This document shows, one piece after another, positions 1-6,405 of a DNA stretch of 6,405 bases. The position numbers and the translations under genes were made by a program. The DNA lies in the IMG/VR virus record IMGVR_UViG_3300018479_000131. One strand, written 5' to 3'. The stretch is from a virus. Taxonomy: Duplodnaviria > Heunggongvirae > Uroviricota > Caudoviricetes. The notes below the pieces were generated by a model. That model was given only the letters and a program-made list of their open reading frames with translations. It made no database searches and was not told the DNA's origin. How positions within the stretch are numbered: position 1 is the first letter of the stretch; every line of letters begins with the position of its first letter.

Positions 1-20
1 ACACGACGCTCTTCCGATCT
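1..20. other. Illumina adapter remnant (non-biological), probably marking a read or contig end
   Basis: Bases 1-20 read ACACGACGCTCTTCCGATCT, which is the 3' end of the Illumina TruSeq universal adapter / read-1 primer site as I know it. Phage-like sequence begins immediately after. Confidence 0.85.
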
Positions 21-87
21 GAGCAGGATCATTACCGGCAAAAATACGTACTTCCGCACGCTGTTCAGTGATTGTTTTCGTTACCAT
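21..87 (-). CDS. Head decoration protein (lambda gpD-like), N-terminal fragment only; the rest runs off the window and into the adapter
   Basis: Reverse complement of 87..21 translates as MVTKTITEQRAEVRIFAGNDPA. An AGGAGG Shine-Dalgarno lies upstream on the minus strand (revcomp of about 93-104), though the spacing of about 12 nt is long. It sits directly downstream of the gpC-like stop, where lambda has D, and the NDPA motif resembles the N-terminus of lambda gpD as recalled. Only 22 codons are visible. Confidence 0.5.
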
Positions 88-123
88 ATTGTAAAAACCT
101 CCTGTTGATAGTCAGCACTGACT

Positions 124-726
124 TCATGGCATGGCCATGAGCATTTTCACGTCCGCATCACCGTCTGCTGACGTCTGTGGCACGCCACCCTGTACCGCTG
201 CCGGTGAATGGTTCGCCATGAAATGTTCAAACATGGCGGTTGTGGATGCAGAGACCGGTTCTGCCTTACCTGCTCCCGCCGCCAGCACAGCCCGGGCGCT
301 CTCCACAGTCATTCCCGGGCAGGCAGCCAGCTGTTCAGCCTGCGCCTCAGCCCCTTTTGCCTCATCCAGTGCTATGATCTGATCACGGAGTGATGGTCCG
401 GCATCCGCCTGCGGTGAAGCAGCCAGGATCGGGCGGGCTTTTTCCACCGTCATCTCCGGCATCGCCGCCAGCGTTGCCGCCAGTTGTTCACGACCGTTCG
501 CTTCTTCACACGCCATAATGCGATCGGCTTCACTCTGCGTGGATGCCACCGGCTGCTGCGGTGCCGCCGCGGCCAGAATCGCCCGGGCCTGTTCAACGCT
601 CATACCCTGTTGTCCTGCCAGCATCGTGGCAAGCTGTTCACGTCCTTTCGCTTCCTGGCATGTCAGGATCCCCATCACTCGCTGGTTCTCCTGCGCGGCG
701 GCTTCCGTTGCAGTTAATTGCGGCAT
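124..726 (-). CDS. Candidate nested in-frame scaffold protein (Nu3-like) from internal initiation within the gpC gene; the start codon is uncertain
   Basis: The in-frame ATG at 726..724 (Met302 of the gpC-like ORF) is preceded on the minus strand by GAGGAGG about 6 nt upstream (revcomp of 727-740 is TCAGAGGAGGCACT). In lambda, Nu3 is made by in-frame internal initiation inside C. Met231 (939..937) and Met241 (909..907) lie nearer the position of the lambda Nu3 start by alignment but have weaker ribosome-binding sites. Confidence 0.3.
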   Translation of the reverse strand: MPQLTATEAAAQENQRVMGILTCQEAKGREQLATMLAGQQGMSVEQARAILAAAAPQQPVASTQSEADRIMACEEANGREQLAATLAAMPEMTVEKARPILAASPQADAGPSLRDQIIALDEAKGAEAQAEQLAACPGMTVESARAVLAAGAGKAEPVSASTTAMFEHFMANHSPAAVQGGVPQTSADGDADVKMLMAMP

Positions 727-1629
727 AGTGCCTCCTCTGACATTACTGTTCAGCGCCGTGGCCATCACACTGATGGCATCCGACGCATTGATTAATTCAT
801 CCGCCAGCCCGGCCTCAATGCCGGACTGACCTTCAAAAACGGCAGCCTCTGTTCCCGTGACGGCATCAACAGACAGACCGGTATACATCGCCACTTTTTC
901 GGCAAACATCCGGCGCGCCGCATCAATCCGCTGCTGCATGTCCTGGCGAACCTCTGCCGGCAACGCTTCAAACTGATTGCCATCCACCTTGTGCGCCCCT
1001 GAGTAAATCAGCGTGATATCCACACCGGCCTGCGCCAGATGACCGGCATAGCTGACATGGCTCATCATCACGCCAATGGAGCCGATACGGGATGTCTGGG
1101 TAACCAGCCGTCGGGAGCAGGCCGACGCCAGCAGCATGGCTGCAGAACAGGCCGTGTCATTGCACAGTGCCCAGACCGGCTTCTGCTGACGGAGGCGGTA
1201 AATCATGTCAGCGCAGTCAAACGCGCCGGCGGCCTGCCCGCCCGGACTGTCAATGTCCAGCAGTACGCCCCGCACCTGGCTATCCGCCATTGCCTGCTGA
1301 AGACAGGCGACAATGCCGTCATATCCTGTCATTCCGGAAAATGGCCGCATACCACCCAGCCGGTGCACCAGCGTGCCGGTCACCGGCAGTACAGCAATAC
1401 CGTTCACCACCCGGTAAACACGGGCCGGTCGTTTACCTCCGGCCATATACTCGTCCGTTTCAGCCAGCATTCCGGGAGCATCAAGCTGTACCTGTTGTTG
1501 TGGTACCGAAAGACTTGCTGCCCCCATCTCGCGCCCGAGCGCGCAAAAGAAAACCCGCGCATAGGCGGGCTCCAGAAGCAGCGGTTCATTGAATGCTGCG
1601 GCAATAATGTGTGAAAGATTACGTCTCAC
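124..1629 (-). CDS. C: Prohead protease / capsid assembly protein (lambda gpC-like, S49/ClpP-like serine peptidase) with a C-terminal scaffold (Nu3-like) domain
   Basis: 501-aa ORF from the track. The N-terminal ~300 aa align by eye with lambda gpC (e.g. AFNEPLLLEPAYARVFFCAL, NGIAVLPVTGTLV, GMTGYDGI, PGGQAAGAFDCAD, KPVWALCNDTACSAA, SRRLVTQT, GSIGVMM, ITLIYSGAHKVDGN, YTGLSVDAV). A Cys-Ser-Ala motif sits where lambda gpC has its catalytic serine. The C-terminal part is a repeated scaffold-type motif. Confidence 0.93.
   Translation of the reverse strand: MRRNLSHIIAAAFNEPLLLEPAYARVFFCALGREMGAASLSVPQQQVQLDAPGMLAETDEYMAGGKRPARVYRVVNGIAVLPVTGTLVHRLGGMRPFSGMTGYDGIVACLQQAMADSQVRGVLLDIDSPGGQAAGAFDCADMIYRLRQQKPVWALCNDTACSAAMLLASACSRRLVTQTSRIGSIGVMMSHVSYAGHLAQAGVDITLIYSGAHKVDGNQFEALPAEVRQDMQQRIDAARRMFAEKVAMYTGLSVDAVTGTEAAVFEGQSGIEAGLADELINASDAISVMATALNSNVRGGTMPQLTATEAAAQENQRVMGILTCQEAKGREQLATMLAGQQGMSVEQARAILAAAAPQQPVASTQSEADRIMACEEANGREQLAATLAAMPEMTVEKARPILAASPQADAGPSLRDQIIALDEAKGAEAQAEQLAACPGMTVESARAVLAAGAGKAEPVSASTTAMFEHFMANHSPAAVQGGVPQTSADGDADVKMLMAMP
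250..680. repeat. Three tandem, diverged coding repeats (periods about 141 and 150 bp) encoding a triplicated ~47-50 aa scaffold-domain motif within the gpC/Nu3-like gene
   Basis: DNA anchors recur at 281-312 (GCCAGCACAGCCCGGGCG...CAGTCAT), 422-453 (GCCAGGATCGGGCGGGC...CCGTCAT) and 572-603 (GCCAGAATCGCCCGGGC...CGCTCAT). Matching protein repeats are ILTCQEAKGREQLATMLAGQQGMSVEQARAILAAA, IMACEEANGREQLAATLAAMPEMTVEKARPILAAS and IIALDEAKGAEAQAEQLAACPGMTVESARAVLAAG. Confidence 0.85.
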
Positions 1630-3211
1630 GTGGTGTTGTCTCCTCTTCCGGCCTGCGACTCTCCGCTATCTGCTGCTGATACGCCTGCGCTATCCACACC
1701 GGACGTGAGAGTCCGGCTTTTTCCCGCTCTGCAGATTCCCTGACCTGCTGGCGGAAAATGTCCTGATAATCCTCGCCCATCAGCGCCAGCTCTTTCTCAT
1801 ACGTGCTCAGTCCGGCCTCAATGCGCATCACTGATTCCTGGACTTCCTTGAGCCCGTCAATGGCCATTCTTCCGGCACCAATCCACTCTGCCCGTGACCA
1901 GGCTGATCGCGCCTGATAAAAATCAAAACGTGCCCGTGGCGGACGAATAATCCCCCGAAGAAGTGCCTCTTCCAGCCAGCAGGAAAACATCTGCGTGGCC
2001 AGCCGGGCCGCAATAAATTTTCGCCGCCCCATAAAATAGCGCCACGACTCATTGGCGGAGGCGCGGGCACTTGAGTAACTGACCTTCGAGTAGTCACGGG
2101 ACAACTGTTCGTAGGAAACGCCAAGACCGGCGGCGATATACCGCAGCAGCGCCTGTTCAAGCGCAGAAAATCCATTGTCTGAATCCTGCGCGGTCTGCAG
2201 TTTCAGATCATCCCCGGGGAAAAGGTGCGGAATTTTGACACCGCCCAGCGTCACGTGATTCGTGTCATACCAGTTGGAGAACTTCTCCAGAATATTAATA
2301 AGCGGATTATCCTTCTGCCCCTGCGGCGCACCGGCGATATATTCAAAGGCCTTTTCGGTATCAAGTTCACTTTCGATTGTGGCTGCATACATGGCCTTCA
2401 CAATGGCCGACTGAAGCTGTGTTACCTGCAGGGAATCGAGCATCTTCAGCCGCTCCATGACGCTGTAAAACTGATTAGCCCCACGGGTCTGCCCGTCCTC
2501 CACCGGCTCGAAAATATGCAGCATGGCCGGACGCCCGGTGGGAAGTTCACGCGGGATCCGTTCCCATCCTCCACTACCAGAGAACGGAAAATCATCCTCA
2601 CAGATGTGGTACGCAACGGCACGGCCATATCGATCGACCTCCACACCGGCCCGCAGAAAACGGTTCCCCATACCGTGTCCTGGCGTGTCCACCCGTTTCG
2701 GACTCACGGCTTTAAAACGCGTACGGAATAACTGCGTGGTTTCCGTATCCCAGACCGGCTGCACAAATATTTCGCCGTTAAACGCATGAACGCCCACACC
2801 TTCACGGATAAATTCCGTGAAGGTGCGTTTTCCTTCCACGTCGATCTCGCCAAACATCCCTTCGGCGTATTCCGACCAGGCCGCCTCCACCTCATCGACA
2901 AAGCTTTTTGCTGCAGTCTCCCGCATCCCCAGCCAGCGCCAGTTCGGACGGTAGCTGATCAGAAACATATGCCCGACAATGTGATCTTTATGCAGGGCCA
3001 CCGCATTAGCCGCTATTCCGTTATTGCGCACCAGATCATCTGCCCGGGCATTCCCCAGACGCAACGCGGGCAGCAGGGCCGCATCGGCACTCTGCGCCGG
3101 TGGCAACCACTCCGCCATTTGCCCGCCAAATCCTGCGCCGCCCCCGTTGTAGCTGAGACTCTCACGAAGCGGAACGCCGTTCACATCAATCAGGACAGGC
3201 GTTAGTTTCAT
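1619..3211 (-). CDS. B: Portal protein (lambda gpB-like)
   Basis: 530-aa ORF. Motifs shared with lambda gpB as recalled include GGGAGFGGQ, DAALLP, GNARADDLVRNNG, HAFNGEIFVQ, WDT, LFRTRFKAVSPKR, EPVEDGQTRGAN, FYSVME, KMLDSLQ, TQLQSAIVKAMYAATIESELDT, LLRYIAAGLGVSYEQLSRDY, YSSARASANESW, FMGRRKF, WSRAEWIGAGRMAIDGLKEVQE and IEAGLSTYEKE. Its start overlaps the gpW stop by 4 nt (ATGA), and its 3' end overlaps the gpC start by 11 nt. Confidence 0.95.
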   Translation of the reverse strand: MKLTPVLIDVNGVPLRESLSYNGGGAGFGGQMAEWLPPAQSADAALLPALRLGNARADDLVRNNGIAANAVALHKDHIVGHMFLISYRPNWRWLGMRETAAKSFVDEVEAAWSEYAEGMFGEIDVEGKRTFTEFIREGVGVHAFNGEIFVQPVWDTETTQLFRTRFKAVSPKRVDTPGHGMGNRFLRAGVEVDRYGRAVAYHICEDDFPFSGSGGWERIPRELPTGRPAMLHIFEPVEDGQTRGANQFYSVMERLKMLDSLQVTQLQSAIVKAMYAATIESELDTEKAFEYIAGAPQGQKDNPLINILEKFSNWYDTNHVTLGGVKIPHLFPGDDLKLQTAQDSDNGFSALEQALLRYIAAGLGVSYEQLSRDYSKVSYSSARASANESWRYFMGRRKFIAARLATQMFSCWLEEALLRGIIRPPRARFDFYQARSAWSRAEWIGAGRMAIDGLKEVQESVMRIEAGLSTYEKELALMGEDYQDIFRQQVRESAEREKAGLSRPVWIAQAYQQQIAESRRPEEETTPRET

Positions 3212-3414
3212 AACCTCACTCCCAGCGGACGACGGCGACGTCGGGTTGTCCCCAGTACCGACTCCGCATCATTGATCGCCCGGTTAAGCTCATCCAGAGA
3301 AGCCGCCGTATATTCAATTCTGCGACCATCTTTCTGGACAGACACCACCCGTTTACCGGTTAATAAATCAAGGCGCGCCTGACGCAGCGCCTGCAGTTCA
3401 GCGACTGTAACCAT
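3208..3414 (-). CDS. W: Head-tail joining / head completion protein (lambda gpW-like)
   Basis: 68 aa, the same length as lambda gpW. Its sequence [51 protein letters not shown]...RRRRP parallels lambda W (TGKRVATVQKDGRRVEFTA...RRRGP) as recalled. A GGAGGA Shine-Dalgarno lies upstream, and the gene sits between the terminase large subunit and portal genes. Confidence 0.9.
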   Translation of the reverse strand: MVTVAELQALRQARLDLLTGKRVVSVQKDGRRIEYTAASLDELNRAINDAESVLGTTRRRRRPLGVRL

Positions 3415-5326
3415 TCACTCCTCCGGACAGCTTCGCTGCCAGTTCTTTAAGGGTTGGCCGGGTCGTCTCTTCTTCCCGGGATTTTGCCAGTACAGCCAGA
3501 TCAAGCTGCCAGCGCTGCACGGACACACGTAATGCCGCGTAGGCATACACCAGGCAGTCCAGCGCTTCGTTACGCCGCTTTTTGTTATCCCACAGCAGAC
3601 GCATCTTTCCTTTTTCCCACTTCTCCACAAGCTCTTCCGCAACCAGTTGCTGCGCCTCTGTCTGCGAAAAAATCTCCGGATCATCAGGAAAACGGATGGC
3701 ATACGACGTGGCTTCATCCGCAGGCGTGGGATCGGCTTTCATACGGGCATAGAGAATCTCTTTTGCGGTGTCCGTCCCCACTTCACACAGATACACGCCC
3801 CGCTGATTGCGGGTTTTTGGCATGGTGATCACCGGCTTGCCATAGACAGATGCGCCTTTTACCGGCAGCACCCGGAAAACACCGTGTTTTTTTGACCTCT
3901 GATAAACGATTTCGCCATCGATCCCCCCGATGTCCCAGCAGACACGGGAAATGGTCATTTCGGTTCCGTCTGCATGACGGTATTTTTTGTTGATCGCCGC
4001 ATCCACACGTAACAGCGTCTCTTCCTCATCGGGACGCCCCATAATGATGATTTTATCCACCAGAAAGGCTTCCTCTCCCGGAGCCCATCCCCAGACATAC
4101 ATCTCAAAACGGTTTCGCTGCGAGTCAATGCCCGCCGTCAGATAAACCACCCGGGCAGGCACTGCCGCCGTGTAACGCACAACCTTATCCATCAGTACCT
4201 GGTGATCGAGTTTTTCGCCCACGGCCTCTTCCCAGGTCTCGCCCAGCGTGGTGTTCACAAAGGTTTTCAGGCCGTTGGGATCTTTCAGTGCATCCAGCCA
4301 GTCATAGACAATCTGTACCCAGGTGGTGAACGGACTGTACGCCGTCCAGATATGGAACGTGATGGAGCGCGGCGGCGGAATTTCATTACCCGCAGCGCTG
4401 AAAAACATCAGACCGTCACGGGTCCACATGCCCGTGTTTTCACAAATCCACCGCCCGTTGCTCTGGTCCAGTTCAGACTGATGGATCACGCAGCCATGAT
4501 GTTCACAGAGGTAGAAAACACTTTCGGGACTGTCCTTCTCCCATTTAAGCCCAAAAGGCGTGGACTCATCGCCAAATTTCAGATACTGCTCCTCCCCACA
4601 GTGCGGGCAGGGCACATAAAAACGCATGAAATGCGCCGACTCGTTGGCCGCTTTTTCGATCTGGCAGGAGCCTTTTATTTTAGGCGTCGAGCCGCGAATG
4701 GATTTTGGCCATACAGAGCCCTCAATACGCTTATCCCCCAGCAGGGTTGGCGAGCCCTCTTTTTCAACATCCGGCTCGAACGAGGAAAGTTCGTCATAGC
4801 AGACCACATCCACGGATTTTTCACGGTAGTTTTTGGCGGCAGCACCACCCAGGCACCAAAAACCCACACGGGAAGTGAATCTTTTTAATGTCAGCGTGTT
4901 ATCCCGGTGCTTACGTCCCAGCCAGGGGGAAAGAATTTTCAGACAGGGAACATCCCGTAATGTTGACTCCACATGAGACTTCATAAAATCTTCAGCGGCA
5001 GAATCCGTAGGCTGAAACAGAAGACTGTTACGGTTTTTATGCTCAATAAAGTAACCAATAACGCCCATCAGCATTTTGGTGTAACCGACTCGAGCTGATT
5101 TTATAAGATTAATCGTGCGGATCCGGTCATTACCCATGCAGTTCATTATTGCCACCTGAAATGGCAACGTCTTCCACCGCCCAGCAAGATAAGAGGACTC
5201 CGGGGGCAAATAATAATTTTGATCGGCCCATTCAACGGTGGTTACAGGCAGTGGGCGTAAAAGCCCACGAAGTGCCACTCCACAAACAACAGCAAAGTTA
5301 TTTAGCTGCTTCTCTGAGGTATTCAT
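3398..5326 (-). CDS. A: Terminase large subunit (lambda gpA-like)
   Basis: 642 aa against 641 in lambda gpA. Long colinear matches by eye include [192 protein letters not shown] and [13 protein letters not shown]. Confidence 0.96.
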
Positions 5327-5846
5327 CCAGCATCTCCGGTAACTTCTCTGCCGTTGATGCGCATCGGTTTGCCGCCTTTGCTATATCGGTTTTCAGGAAA
5401 TCAAGCATAGCGGGCGTCAGTGCCGAAAACTGTCTCTGCATGGACAATGGAATGGAGTCAAGAATGGCAGAGATCTCCTGTGCCAGTCTTCCCAGAGCAA
5501 AAAGGCAAAACCCTGTATCAATGACCTGCCCACTGTCGCGGGCATTTTTCAGTTCCTGTGCATCTGCCTGTGCCTTCGTCAGTCGGTAACGTTCGTAATC
5601 AATGGTGCCGGGCTGAAGGTCTGATTCGCTGGCAGCCCTCAAATCCTCGACCTCTTTACGGAGTTTTTCGTTTTCAATATCAGCTTCGCGCTGCGCATAC
5701 CACTGAATGGCAGCAGTTGTATCAAAAACTGATTCAGTCCCTTTCCCTCCACCAGAAACTAGTGGTAACCCCTGACTCTGCCAGGCGGTGATGGTCCTGA
5801 CATCAACGCCAAAAATATCGGCCAGTTTTTTCTTATTGACGTTCAT
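5298..5846 (-). CDS. nu1: Terminase small subunit (lambda Nu1-like)
   Basis: 182 aa against 181 in lambda Nu1. It has an N-terminal helix-turn-helix-like segment ([24 protein letters not shown]) and a GGGKGTES motif (nt 5730-5753, minus strand), and is colinear with lambda Nu1 as recalled ([52 protein letters not shown]). It overlaps the gpA-like start by 29 nt and lies immediately downstream of cos. Confidence 0.95.
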
Positions 5847-5865
5847 ACACTCATCCGGAAACCAG

Positions 5866-5918
5866 AAAGGATCTGAAAATGGCGTTTTCGGACAAAAACA
5901 GCCTTTGTCAGATCCTTT
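5866..5918. promoter_or_regulatory. Perfect 11-bp inverted repeat with a 31-bp spacer inside cosB; candidate paired binding sites (R-site-like) for the small terminase subunit
   Basis: AAAGGATCTGA at 5866-5876 and TCAGATCCTTT at 5908-5918 are exact reverse complements. The element lies 20-70 bp upstream of the Nu1 start, where lambda carries the inverted R2/R1-type elements. Confidence 0.55.
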
Positions 5919-5941
5919 TATATTTTTAATATTCTATTGAT

Positions 5942-5954
5942 AATCAATCAGTTA
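5942..5954. promoter_or_regulatory. IHF binding-site consensus match (candidate I1-like site of cosB)
   Basis: AATCAATCAGTTA matches the IHF consensus WATCAANNNNTTR exactly. It is embedded in an AT-rich tract between the R3-like element and the inverted repeat, as the IHF site I1 is in lambda cosB. Confidence 0.5.
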
Positions 5955-6015
5955 AAAAGAAGAAGAACGGATCTACTTTTTCCCGAAAAATTTTCATAAA
6001 TAGTGAAAACGCGCG

Positions 6016-6027
6016 AGGTCGCCGCCC
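6016..6027. other. cosN: the 12-bp lambda-type cohesive-end sequence (terminase nicking site)
   Basis: 6016-6027 reads AGGTCGCCGCCC, the exact reverse complement of the lambda cohesive end GGGCGGCGACCT, and is flanked on both sides by near-lambda-identical sequence. Confidence 0.9.
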
Positions 6028-6058
6028 CGTAACCTGTCGGATCGCCGGAAAGGACCCG
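6028..6058. promoter_or_regulatory. cosQ-containing segment (right-end side of cos)
   Basis: CGTAACCTGTCGGATCGCCGGAAAGGACCCG is the reverse complement of the last ~31 bp of the lambda genome right end (…CGGGTCCTTTCCGGTGATCCGACAGGTTACG as recalled), with a single mismatch. Confidence 0.8.
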
Positions 6059-6062
6059 AAAA

Positions 6063-6079
6063 ATGATAATAATTATCAT
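6063..6079. promoter_or_regulatory. AT-rich palindrome ATGATAAT-A-ATTATCAT; candidate operator in the intergenic region upstream of the plus-strand small gene
   Basis: 8-bp arms are exact reverse complements around a single central base. A related palindrome ATAAT-CA-ATTAT lies at 6122-6133, and GCATC-containing direct repeats lie at 6077-6083 and 6097-6103. Confidence 0.35.
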
Positions 6080-6226
6080 CTACATATCACAACGTGCATC
6101 TACGCCATCAAACCACGTCAAATAATCAATTATGACGCAGGTATCGTATTAATTGATCTGCATCAACTTAACGTAAAAACAACTTCAGACAATACAAATC
6201 AGCAACACTGAATACGGGGCAACCTC

Positions 6227-6405
6227 ATGTCAACTAAGAACAGAACCCGCAGAACAACAACCCGCAACATCCGCTTTCCTAACCAAATGATTGAACAAAT
6301 TAACATCGCTCTTGAGCAAAAAGGGTCTGGGAATTTCTCAGCCTGGGTCATTGAAGCCTGCCGTCGGAGACTAACGTCAGAAAAGAGAGCATATACATCA
6401 ATCCA
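6227..6405 (+). CDS. Small basic protein, 3'-truncated at the window end; resembles the DUF3950 YlcI/YnfO family of lambdoid prophages; possible ribbon-helix-helix DNA-binding fold
   Basis: ATG at 6227 opens a frame with no stop to the window end, translating as MSTKNRTRRTTTRNIRFPNQMIEQINIALEQKGSGNFSAWVIEACRRRLTSEKRAYTSI. The six-frame track omits it because it has no stop. The pattern is basic N-terminus, short beta-like strand (NIRFP), helix, Gly turn, helix. In E. coli K-12 prophages, ylcI and ynfO lie next to Nu1 homologues (noh genes) as I recall. The ribosome-binding site is weak (GGGG about 8 nt upstream). Confidence 0.55.
   Translation, partial: MSTKNRTRRTTTRNIRFPNQMIEQINIALEQKGSGNFSAWVIEACRRRLTSEKRAYTSI

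What the first reader, a model, noticed from the sequence alone, without database searches (positions are those of the whole stretch)
250..680. Triplicated scaffold-domain repeat in the gpC/Nu3-like gene
The C-terminal third of the protease/scaffold ORF contains three diverged tandem copies of a ~47-50 aa motif (consensus roughly I-x-A-x-EAxGREQLA-x-LA-x-x-P-x-MTVExAR-x-LAA). Lambda gpC/Nu3, as I recall it, has a single copy (IMGILNCEEAHGREEQARVLAETPGMTVKTARRILAAAPQ). The expansion accounts for most of the size difference (501 aa against 439). The copies are diverged, so this is an old duplication and not an assembly artefact. It may alter scaffold valency or coat-protein binding, and it is a substrate for recombinational length variation.
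Basis: partly seen in the sequence, partly recalled or inferred. Interest (0 to 1): 0.5.

Follow-up and report, generated by a model that had tools for sequence, protein, structure and literature searches.

The report
Known triple repeat in phage-21 scaffold
The head protease/scaffold gene of this phage-21-like prophage carries three old, diverged copies of a roughly 40-residue three-helix module that lambda has once; the repeat is real, but it was annotated in phage 21 decades ago ("Tri boxes") and sits in about a third of complete E. coli genomes.

Summary
The 501-aa ORF at 124-1629 (minus strand) is the C/Nu3-type head protease/scaffold. It is 99% identical to phage 21 gp5. Residues 317-455 hold three tandem copies of a roughly 40-aa unit. 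The units score z = 12-16 above composition-preserving shuffles. Each matches the same single interval of lambda C (355/364-397/401), and lambda has only that one copy.

It is not new. GenBank M81255.1 (phage 21 head operon) already annotates "Tri1 box", "Tri box" and "Tri3 box" (function unknown), which map onto window 556-659, 409-519 and 265-378.

The three-copy gene is in 1864 of 5426 complete E. coli genomes. A four-copy relative is in 105, and the lambda-type one-copy gene is in 3195. Rare in-frame variants lack all or part of unit 2. Among 149 diverse representatives of the family, about 100 have one unit and one has three.

The likely role, inferred and not shown, is a protein-interaction module of the scaffold that is multivalent in 21-type phages. 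Interest is low.

The parts
124..1629 (-). gp5: lambda C-like head maturation protease/scaffold fusion, 501 aa, GTG start, overlapping the end of the portal gene
   Evidence: ORF. It has 5 aa and 11 nt differences from phage 21 gp5 of M81255.1. PHROG 53 'head maturation protease' scores E = 1e-228.
751..1194 (-). Peptidase S49 (SppA-like) domain, residues 146-293
   Evidence: Pfam PF01343 scores 121.6 bits against a cut-off of 24.9. S162 and K214 are invariant in the five-phage alignment.
124..726 (-). Nested in-frame scaffold gene gp6 (lambda Nu3 analogue), 200 aa, starting at M302 of gp5
   Evidence: The start ATG is at 726-724 and AGGAGG lies at 731-736. The same nested CDS and RBS are annotated in M81255.1 and OL657228.1.
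556..681 (-). Unit R1 (Tri1 box), residues 317-358. This is the orthologue of lambda's single unit, and its first helix is extended at the N-terminal side.
   Evidence: HMM domain. The GenBank Tri1 box maps to window 556-659. R1 clusters with the lambda unit in the unit tree.
409..531 (-). Unit R2 (Tri box, the second), residues 367-407. It is the derived unit type, one residue shorter.
   Evidence: HMM domain. The GenBank Tri box maps to window 409-519. It is 82% identical to Gifsy-1 unit 2. It is the unit lost or truncated in natural variants.
265..384 (-). Unit R3 (Tri3 box), residues 416-455. It is the derived unit type and has GAE in place of GRE.
   Evidence: HMM domain. The GenBank Tri3 box maps to window 265-378.
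127..264 (-). C-terminal tail shared by protease and scaffold, residues 456-501. It has a short amphipathic helix (AMFEHFMANHSP, window 208-249), an acidic stretch and the terminal LMAMP.
   Evidence: AF2 predicts a helix at 160-173 of gp6. An L-D-x-x-M-like motif about 10-20 aa after the last unit, followed by an acidic stretch, recurs in most of the 102 unit-bearing proteins examined, which include the window's gp5 and lambda C.

Best explanation
**What it is.** These are the 'Tri boxes' of the phage-21-type head protease/scaffold gene. The gene makes two products in one reading frame. One is the full-length S49 protease gp5 (lambda C analogue). The other is the nested 200-aa scaffold gp6 (lambda Nu3 analogue). 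Both end in the same C-terminal region.

**Architecture.** In the lambda lineage, and in most relatives, that region holds one roughly 40-residue module followed by a conserved tail. In the 21/Gifsy lineage the module was duplicated in frame long ago. The result is one lambda-like unit (R1) followed by two copies of a derived unit that is one residue shorter (R2, R3). A sister lineage in E. coli prophages has three such extra copies, four units in all.

**Predicted structure.** Each unit is predicted to fold on its own into a small three-helix bundle. The units are joined by flexible Pro/Ala/Gln-rich linkers, like beads on a string.

**Most likely mechanism (inferred, not shown).** The unit is a protein-protein interaction module used inside the procapsid, with candidate partners coat protein, portal or other scaffold or protease molecules. 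A 21-type scaffold or protease would then offer three binding modules per chain where lambda offers one.

**Selection and turnover.** All three copies are kept under purifying selection. The tandem array occasionally gains or loses units by unequal recombination.
For: **Identity**
- The protein is 99% identical to phage 21 gp5.
- M81255.1 annotates Tri1, Tri and Tri3 boxes that map exactly onto the three units.
- The nested gene with AGGAGG and ATG is present.

**Single copy elsewhere**
- Lambda has one unit.
- About 100 of 149 representatives at 50% identity have exactly one unit, and only P0093 has three.

**Age and selection**
- The three units are orthologous position by position in relatives of E. 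coli and Salmonella down to 44% identity, Gifsy-1 included.
- Only 30-43% of identical amino acids share a codon.
- Core positions are invariant across 35 units.

**Order of events**
- R1 units cluster with lambda's unit. R2 and R3 form a separate type.
- The multi-copy scaffolds travel with one clade of coat proteins, 82-84% identical to each other and about 60% identical to lambda E.

**Fold**
- The single-unit model has pLDDT 85 and pTM 0.61, with helices at 2-12, 21-28 and 35-44.
- In the whole gp6 model each unit has pLDDT 71-83, the linkers are below 63, and pTM is 0.27. So no fixed arrangement between units is predicted.

**Length variation**
- A four-copy gene occurs in 105 complete genomes, with units 2-4 82-92% identical to each other.
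- P0022 is an R1/R2 hybrid. P0008, P0011, P0016, P0019 and NZ_AP022003.1 carry in-frame deletions in R2.

**Interaction role, from the literature on lambda**
- Nu3 interacts with itself, with C and with E, and is needed for incorporation of portal B (PMC3224144).
Against: - No experiment or structure ties this unit to any partner. The GenBank note itself says 'function unknown; putative'.
- No PDB sequence relative exists.
- In other scaffolds the coat-binding element is the extreme C-terminus. Here a conserved tail follows the units in every relative. The units could therefore be spacers or self-association modules and not coat binders.
- Natural in-frame loss of unit 2 suggests that three copies are not strictly required, though those prophages may be defective.
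- The AF2 alignments were shallow (19 and 35 rows) and of limited taxonomic spread.
Confidence: 0.85

Rival explanations
1. The apparent repeat is a by-product of Ala/Gln/Glu-rich low-complexity composition in a disordered scaffold tail, and not true internal homology.
For: - The region is Ala-rich.
- Lambda Nu3 has been described as intrinsically disordered (title of Medina et al. 2011, seen in the reference list).
- The DNA repeat finders detect nothing.
Against: - Shuffles that keep composition never reach the observed scores, z = 12-16.
- All three units align in register to the same lambda interval with E = 1e-9 to 1e-15.
- The pattern of invariant positions is shared: I..., EA.G.E, A..LA, M, A...L.A.
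- The units are predicted to be folded, with pLDDT 85.
Confidence: 0.01
2. The triplication is an assembly or sequencing artefact, or a private recent duplication of this one genome.
For: Tandem repeats are a common source of assembly error.
Against: - The copies are only 51-57% identical in protein and 57-66% identical in DNA.
- The same structure is in the reference phage 21 record, in 19 other phage records and in 1864 complete E. coli genomes.
- Gifsy-1 of Salmonella has orthologous units.
Confidence: 0.01
3. The units are mainly spacers or self-association (oligomerisation) modules. They would set the length or the oligomeric state of the scaffold, while the conserved C-terminal tail does the coat binding.
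For: - A tail with an L-D-x-x-M-like helix and an acidic stretch follows the last unit in all unit-bearing relatives examined. Its median length is 53 aa.
- From general knowledge, the scaffolds of P22, phi29, SPP1, 80alpha and P2 bind coat through their extreme C-termini.
- Lambda Nu3 self-associates.
- Unit 2 can be lost in frame.
Against: - A pure spacer would not need strongly conserved surface motifs (EAKGRE, PGMT) in every copy.
Confidence: 0.3
4. The repeated DNA has a nucleic-acid-level role, such as regulator binding sites or RNA structure, and the protein repeat is secondary.
For: OL657228.1 annotates two 'CII binding site' pattern matches (TTGYN6TTGY) inside the scaffold gene.
Against: - Conservation is at the amino-acid level, with synonymous sites scrambled.
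- No in-register DNA repeat family is found.
- The annotated sites are bare pattern matches and do not recur once per unit.
Confidence: 0.02

Closest known systems
Phage 21 gp5/gp6 with the Tri1, Tri and Tri3 boxes (GenBank M81255.1; complete genome OL657228.1)
   Same: The gene is essentially the same: 99% protein identity and 11 nt differences in 1506. It has the same nested scaffold gene and RBS, and the same three boxes at the same positions.
   Different: There are five amino-acid substitutions, two of them in units 2 and 3 (A373V, I419M). The neighbouring small terminase gene is of a different type.
Lambda gpC / gpNu3 (J02459.1 4418-5737 and 5132-5737)
   Same: - The protein has the same architecture: S49 protease, a linker, the unit, then a tail, with a nested scaffold gene.
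- Identity is 54% over the region aligned by BLASTP.
- Lambda's unit is the orthologue of R1.

   Different: Lambda has one unit where this gene has three. It has a linker about 36-43 aa longer before the unit, and 439 aa against 501.
Gifsy-1 STM2605 (NC_010392.1) and representative P0093
   Same: Both have three units in the same order and with orthologous positions. Gifsy-1 unit 2 is 82% identical to the window's R2.
   Different: They are 59-67% identical overall, their hosts are Salmonella and other enterics, and their C-terminal tails differ.
Four-unit S49 protease/scaffold of E. coli prophages (for example WP_096934546.1, strain STEC309)
   Same: It belongs to the same head-gene lineage (coat protein 82.5% identical to that of phage 21). 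It has one R1-type unit followed by derived units.
   Different: It has three derived units that are 82-92% identical to each other, which points to recent expansion or homogenisation. It was not found in any isolated phage record. It is in 105 complete genomes.
Tandem three-helix-bundle binding domains such as staphylococcal protein A, and UBA/CUE-type domains (structural analogy only)
P22-type scaffolding protein C-terminal helix-turn-helix coat-binding domain (functional analogy, from general knowledge)
   Same: It is a small helical element near the C-terminus of a scaffold that mediates contact with the procapsid.

Membership tests
Phage 21-type gp5/gp6 (C/Nu3 analogue with Tri boxes) | Near-identity to the phage 21 gp5 sequence | tested here: met
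   There are 5 aa differences in 501 and 11 nt differences in 1506. tblastn gives 98.8% identity.
Phage 21-type gp5/gp6 (C/Nu3 analogue with Tri boxes) | Three annotated Tri boxes in the scaffold part | tested here: met
   The repeat_region features of M81255.1 at 5542-5645, 5682-5792 and 5823-5936 map to window 556-659, 409-519 and 265-378. These coincide with the HMM-defined units.
Phage 21-type gp5/gp6 (C/Nu3 analogue with Tri boxes) | Nested in-frame scaffold gene with its own ribosome-binding site | tested here: met
   AGGAGG lies at 731-736 and the ATG at 726-724. The same CDS is annotated in both phage 21 records. Expression was not tested.
Phage 21-type gp5/gp6 (C/Nu3 analogue with Tri boxes) | Lambda-type head gene order: small terminase, large terminase, W, portal, C/Nu3, then D and E | tested here: met
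   The window is collinear with M81255.1 over window 20-5242 at 96.0% identity. The D (shp) and E genes lie beyond the window's left end.
Peptidase S49 (SppA-like) head maturation protease | Match to the family model above the curated threshold | tested here: met
   PF01343 scores 121.6 bits against a cut-off of 24.9, over residues 146-293.
Peptidase S49 (SppA-like) head maturation protease | Conserved catalytic serine, and lysine of the Ser-Lys dyad | tested here: inconclusive
   S162 and K214 are invariant in the alignment of the window, phage 21, Gifsy-1, STEC309 and lambda proteins. Which residues are catalytic rests on general knowledge of S49 and gpC, not on a test here.
Helix-hairpin-helix motif (Pfam PF00633) | Match to the model at or above the gathering score | tested here: not met
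   The best score is 17.5 bits (E = 0.0036), on unit 3 only, against a cut-off of 24. Units 1 and 2 do not match.
P22-type scaffold helix-turn-helix coat-binding domain | Structural match of the unit to a solved scaffold coat-binding domain | tested here: not met
Scaffold module that binds coat, portal or scaffold (functional class) | Demonstrated physical interaction of the unit with a procapsid component | not testable with these tools
   Only whole-protein lambda Nu3 interactions are reported: Nu3-Nu3, Nu3-C, Nu3-E and Nu3-B (PMC3224144).

The most novel reading that the evidence does not exclude
The roughly 40-residue three-helix unit may be the element that docks protease and scaffold onto the inner surface of the coat lattice or onto the portal. 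It is uncurated in Pfam and NCBIfam, yet it is present once in about two thirds of the nearest 149 gpC-like representatives. If so, its copy number (1 in lambda, 3 in 21/Gifsy, 4 in a prophage lineage, with natural 2-copy and truncated variants) would tune scaffold valency, and with it the scaffold:coat stoichiometry or the nucleation rate. That would make this natural allelic series a ready-made system for testing how scaffold valency controls procapsid assembly.
Probability: 0.3. Interest if true: 0.4.

Novelty: already known. Interest (0 to 1): 0.15.

Why it matters
As a discovery it matters little. The triplication is annotated in the reference phage 21 head-operon record, and the gene is one of the commonest prophage genes in E. 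coli.

What remains open is the function of the unit. The record itself says 'function unknown', and no solved structure or curated family covers it. The lambda scaffold is still poorly understood structurally.

The survey here adds three things that could make the valency question experimentally approachable:
- a predicted independent three-helix fold for the unit;
- one ancestral copy in most relatives;
- a natural series of 1, 2, 3 and 4 copies.

None of these was unexpected.

Tried and rejected
- **DNA repeat finders.** Tandem Repeats Finder and the repeat finder on 124-1629 (one search failed on the strand argument) find no in-register DNA repeat. The copies are too diverged, so the repeat had to be shown at the protein level.
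- **BLASTP self-comparison.** Comparing whole proteins with themselves printed no off-diagonal HSPs, probably because of HSP culling. It was replaced by unit-against-protein BLASTP.
- **The search for homologous proteins with the scaffold part.** It returned mostly contig-end fragments. These were useful for variants but unsuitable for a copy-number census. The census was done on the representative search and on complete E. coli genomes.
- **Foldseek of the whole gp6 model against the PDB.** Nothing below E = 3, as expected for a beads-on-a-string model with pTM 0.27.
- **PDB sequence search.** No relatives.
- **Pfam and NCBIfam on the scaffold part.** Only sub-threshold HhH and DUF hits, rejected as family assignments.
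- **Literature.** No held paper mentions the Tri boxes or the phage 21 head-gene paper. The Medina et al. papers on gpC and gpNu3 are not held. Searches on Nu3 structure gave nothing specific. A CBASS/prohead-protease preprint was checked and is not relevant.
- **Explanations rejected.** Assembly artefact, compositional artefact and a DNA-level function (see the rival explanations).

Full report
**What is in the window**

All long ORFs lie on the minus strand and form a lambda-type head operon:
- small terminase, 5298-5846
- large terminase, 3398-5326
- W-like, 3208-3414
- portal, 1619-3211
- a 501-aa ORF, 124-1629

The 501-aa ORF has a Peptidase_S49 domain at residues 146-293 (PF01343, 121.6 bits against a cut-off of 24.9). 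It matches PHROG 53 'head maturation protease' end to end (E = 1e-228). It differs from phage 21 gp5 (M81255.1) by 5 amino acids and 11 nucleotides. The window is collinear with that record over 20-5242 at 96.0% identity.

As in lambda C/Nu3, a second product is nested in frame. An ATG at 726-724 is preceded by AGGAGG at 731-736. It opens a 200-aa scaffold gene that both phage 21 records annotate as gp6 or scaffolding protein.

**The observation**

Residues 314-465 contain three tandem units:
- R1: ...RVMGILTCQEAKGREQLATMLAGQQGMSVEQARAILAAA...
- R2: ...DRIMACEEANGREQLAATLAAMPEMTVEKARPILAAS...
- R3: ...DQIIALDEAKGAEAQAEQLAACPGMTVESARAVLAAG...

The HMM cores are 317-358, 367-407 and 416-455, which is window 556-681, 409-531 and 265-384.

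The similarity is far beyond composition:
- Local BLOSUM62 scores of 90-101 compare with 25-27 +/- 5 in 1000 shuffles, z = 12-16.
- Each unit hits the same single interval of lambda C, with E = 2e-15, 1.3e-12 and 2.7e-9.
- A unit HMM rebuilt mainly from single-copy relatives still scores all three at 42-61 bits.

At the DNA level the copies are only 57-66% identical in codon register. Only 30-43% of identical residues use the same codon. This is why Tandem Repeats Finder and the repeat finder see nothing.

So the repeat is real, old, and maintained by selection on the protein.

**Comparison with lambda**

It has one unit, at 360-399, and no second match.

The global alignment shows that the two extra units add about 99 aa. 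Lambda has a linker about 36-43 aa longer in front of its unit. The net difference is therefore 62 aa.

**It is already known**

The phage 21 head-operon record M81255.1 carries three repeat_region features inside gene 6. Mapped to the window they are 556-659, 409-519 and 265-378, which are the three units. From memory, that record belongs to Smith and Feiss, Gene 1993. I could not retrieve the paper.

The same three-copy protein occurs in 20 phage records at 80% or more coverage, among them phage 21, ev017, 4A7, 1W, 3W, D2, the PhiR series and Gifsy-1.

**How common, and how variable**

Counts in 5426 complete E. coli genomes:

| Scaffold gene type | Genomes with at least 80% coverage |
|---|---|
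| Lambda type, 1 unit | 3195 |
| Phage 21 type, 3 units | 1864 |
| 4-unit relative | 105 |

- The four-unit gene is, for example, WP_096934546.1 (538 aa). Its units 2-4 are 82-92% identical to each other. It was not found in any isolated phage record.
- Among the 149 nearest representatives at 50% identity (31,201 family members in all), about 100 have exactly one unit. Only P0093 (59% identical, Gifsy-like) has three. The rest are fragments or lack the unit.
- Close relatives include length variants that look like products of unequal or illegitimate recombination within the array. P0022 is an in-register R1/R2 hybrid with two units. P0019 and P0016 lack R2. P0008, P0011 and an intact 482-aa ORF in NZ_AP022003.1 carry a 19-aa in-frame deletion in R2.
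- Such variants are rare. Only 6 of 1870 positive genomes fall below 80% coverage.

**History**

In a tree of units, all R1 units group with lambda's single unit. R2 and R3 units form a second type that is one residue shorter (D-x-I-[ML]-A-x-x-EAKGRE...). The window's R2 is 82% identical to Gifsy-1 R2. Alignment of 19 relatives down to 44% identity keeps R1, R2 and R3 in orthologous columns.

The multi-copy scaffolds travel with one clade of coat proteins. These are 82-84% identical to each other and about 60% identical to lambda E.

The expansion therefore happened once, early in the 21/Gifsy head lineage, after its split from the lambda lineage. There was further and more recent expansion or homogenisation in the four-unit lineage.

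**Structure**

AlphaFold2 on gp6 (19-row alignment) gives:
- pLDDT 68 and pTM 0.27 overall;
- each unit at 71-83, and the linkers below 63;
- a further helix at 160-173 in the tail.

A single unit (35-row alignment) gives pLDDT 85 and pTM 0.61, with helices at 2-12, 21-28 and 35-44.

The prediction is three independent small three-helix bundles on flexible linkers.

**Mechanism**

What is shown:
- The units lie in the region shared by the protease and the scaffold.
- They are under purifying selection in all copies.
- Core hydrophobic positions and the EA-x-G-x-E turn are invariant or nearly so.
- In every relative the last unit is followed by a tail that carries an L-D-x-x-M-like helix and an acidic stretch.

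What is inferred: the unit is a protein-interaction module used in procapsid assembly, and 21-type phages present it three times per chain. For lambda, Nu3 is reported to interact with itself, with C and with E, and to be needed for portal incorporation (PMC3224144). No domain mapping was available.

The main live rival is that the units are spacers or self-association modules and the tail is the coat binder (about 0.3). Artefact, composition and DNA-level explanations are excluded by the data above.

**Verdict**

The feature is already annotated in the reference phage and is ubiquitous in E. coli prophages. Its function is still unknown. The natural copy-number series and the predicted fold are modest additions. 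Interest is low.

Noticed in passing
window 5243-5846 (small terminase 5298-5846 and the first 17 codons of the large terminase): Homology to phage 21 DNA stops at window 5242. The small terminase is only 65% identical to phage 21 gp1 and 61% to lambda Nu1. The portal, W-like and C-like proteins are 98-99% identical to their phage 21 counterparts, and the large terminase is 93.6% identical from residue 18 onward. This is a mosaic junction that swaps the small subunit together with the N-terminus of the large subunit, which suggests a third packaging (cosB) specificity.
   Followed up: partly
window 5950-6405: The DNA upstream of the small terminase gene matches 'hypothetical protein' regions of various lambda-like and Stx phages at 94-99% identity. 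No single phage record covers 80% of window 5243-6405. The window therefore runs through the cos region into the opposite genome end. That fits a prophage or a circularised genome, and again it is mosaic.
   Followed up: partly
L005 1588-3204 (E. coli STEC309, NZ_CP041435.1; WP_096934546.1): This is a four-unit version of the same protease/scaffold (538 aa). Its units 2-4 are 82-92% identical to each other. It is present in 105 of 5426 complete E. coli genomes and in no isolated phage record.
   Followed up: yes
L007 298-1746 (E. coli WP3-W18-ESBL-08, NZ_AP022003.1); proteins P0008, P0011, P0016, P0019, P0022: These are natural in-frame length variants of the repeat array. They include a 19-aa deletion removing the end of helix 2 and all of helix 3 of unit 2 in an intact 482-aa ORF, complete loss of unit 2, and an in-register R1/R2 hybrid. 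In every variant the deletion falls in unit 2 or spans the R1/R2 junction. Whether those prophages are functional is unknown.
   Followed up: partly
window 265-681, and representatives P0095-P0240: The roughly 40-aa unit is present once in about 100 of the 149 nearest family representatives. No Pfam or NCBIfam model covers it. Only PHROG profiles (8399, 1999, 17040) match it.
   Followed up: partly
L003 2409-2422 and 2643-2656 (OL657228.1), corresponding to the scaffold gene in the window: The complete phage 21 record annotates two 'transcription factor CII' binding sites (TTGYN6TTGY pattern matches) on the opposite strand inside the scaffold gene. They look like bare pattern matches and were not examined.
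   Followed up: no
P0098 (844 aa); PHROG 21 profile (1362 positions): In some family members the S49 protease plus unit lies far from the N-terminus of a much longer protein. In P0098 the protease is at 411-727 and the unit at 765-804. A 'portal protein' PHROG profile also aligns to the protease and unit regions. This suggests portal-protease-scaffold fusions or gene-calling run-ons.
   Followed up: no
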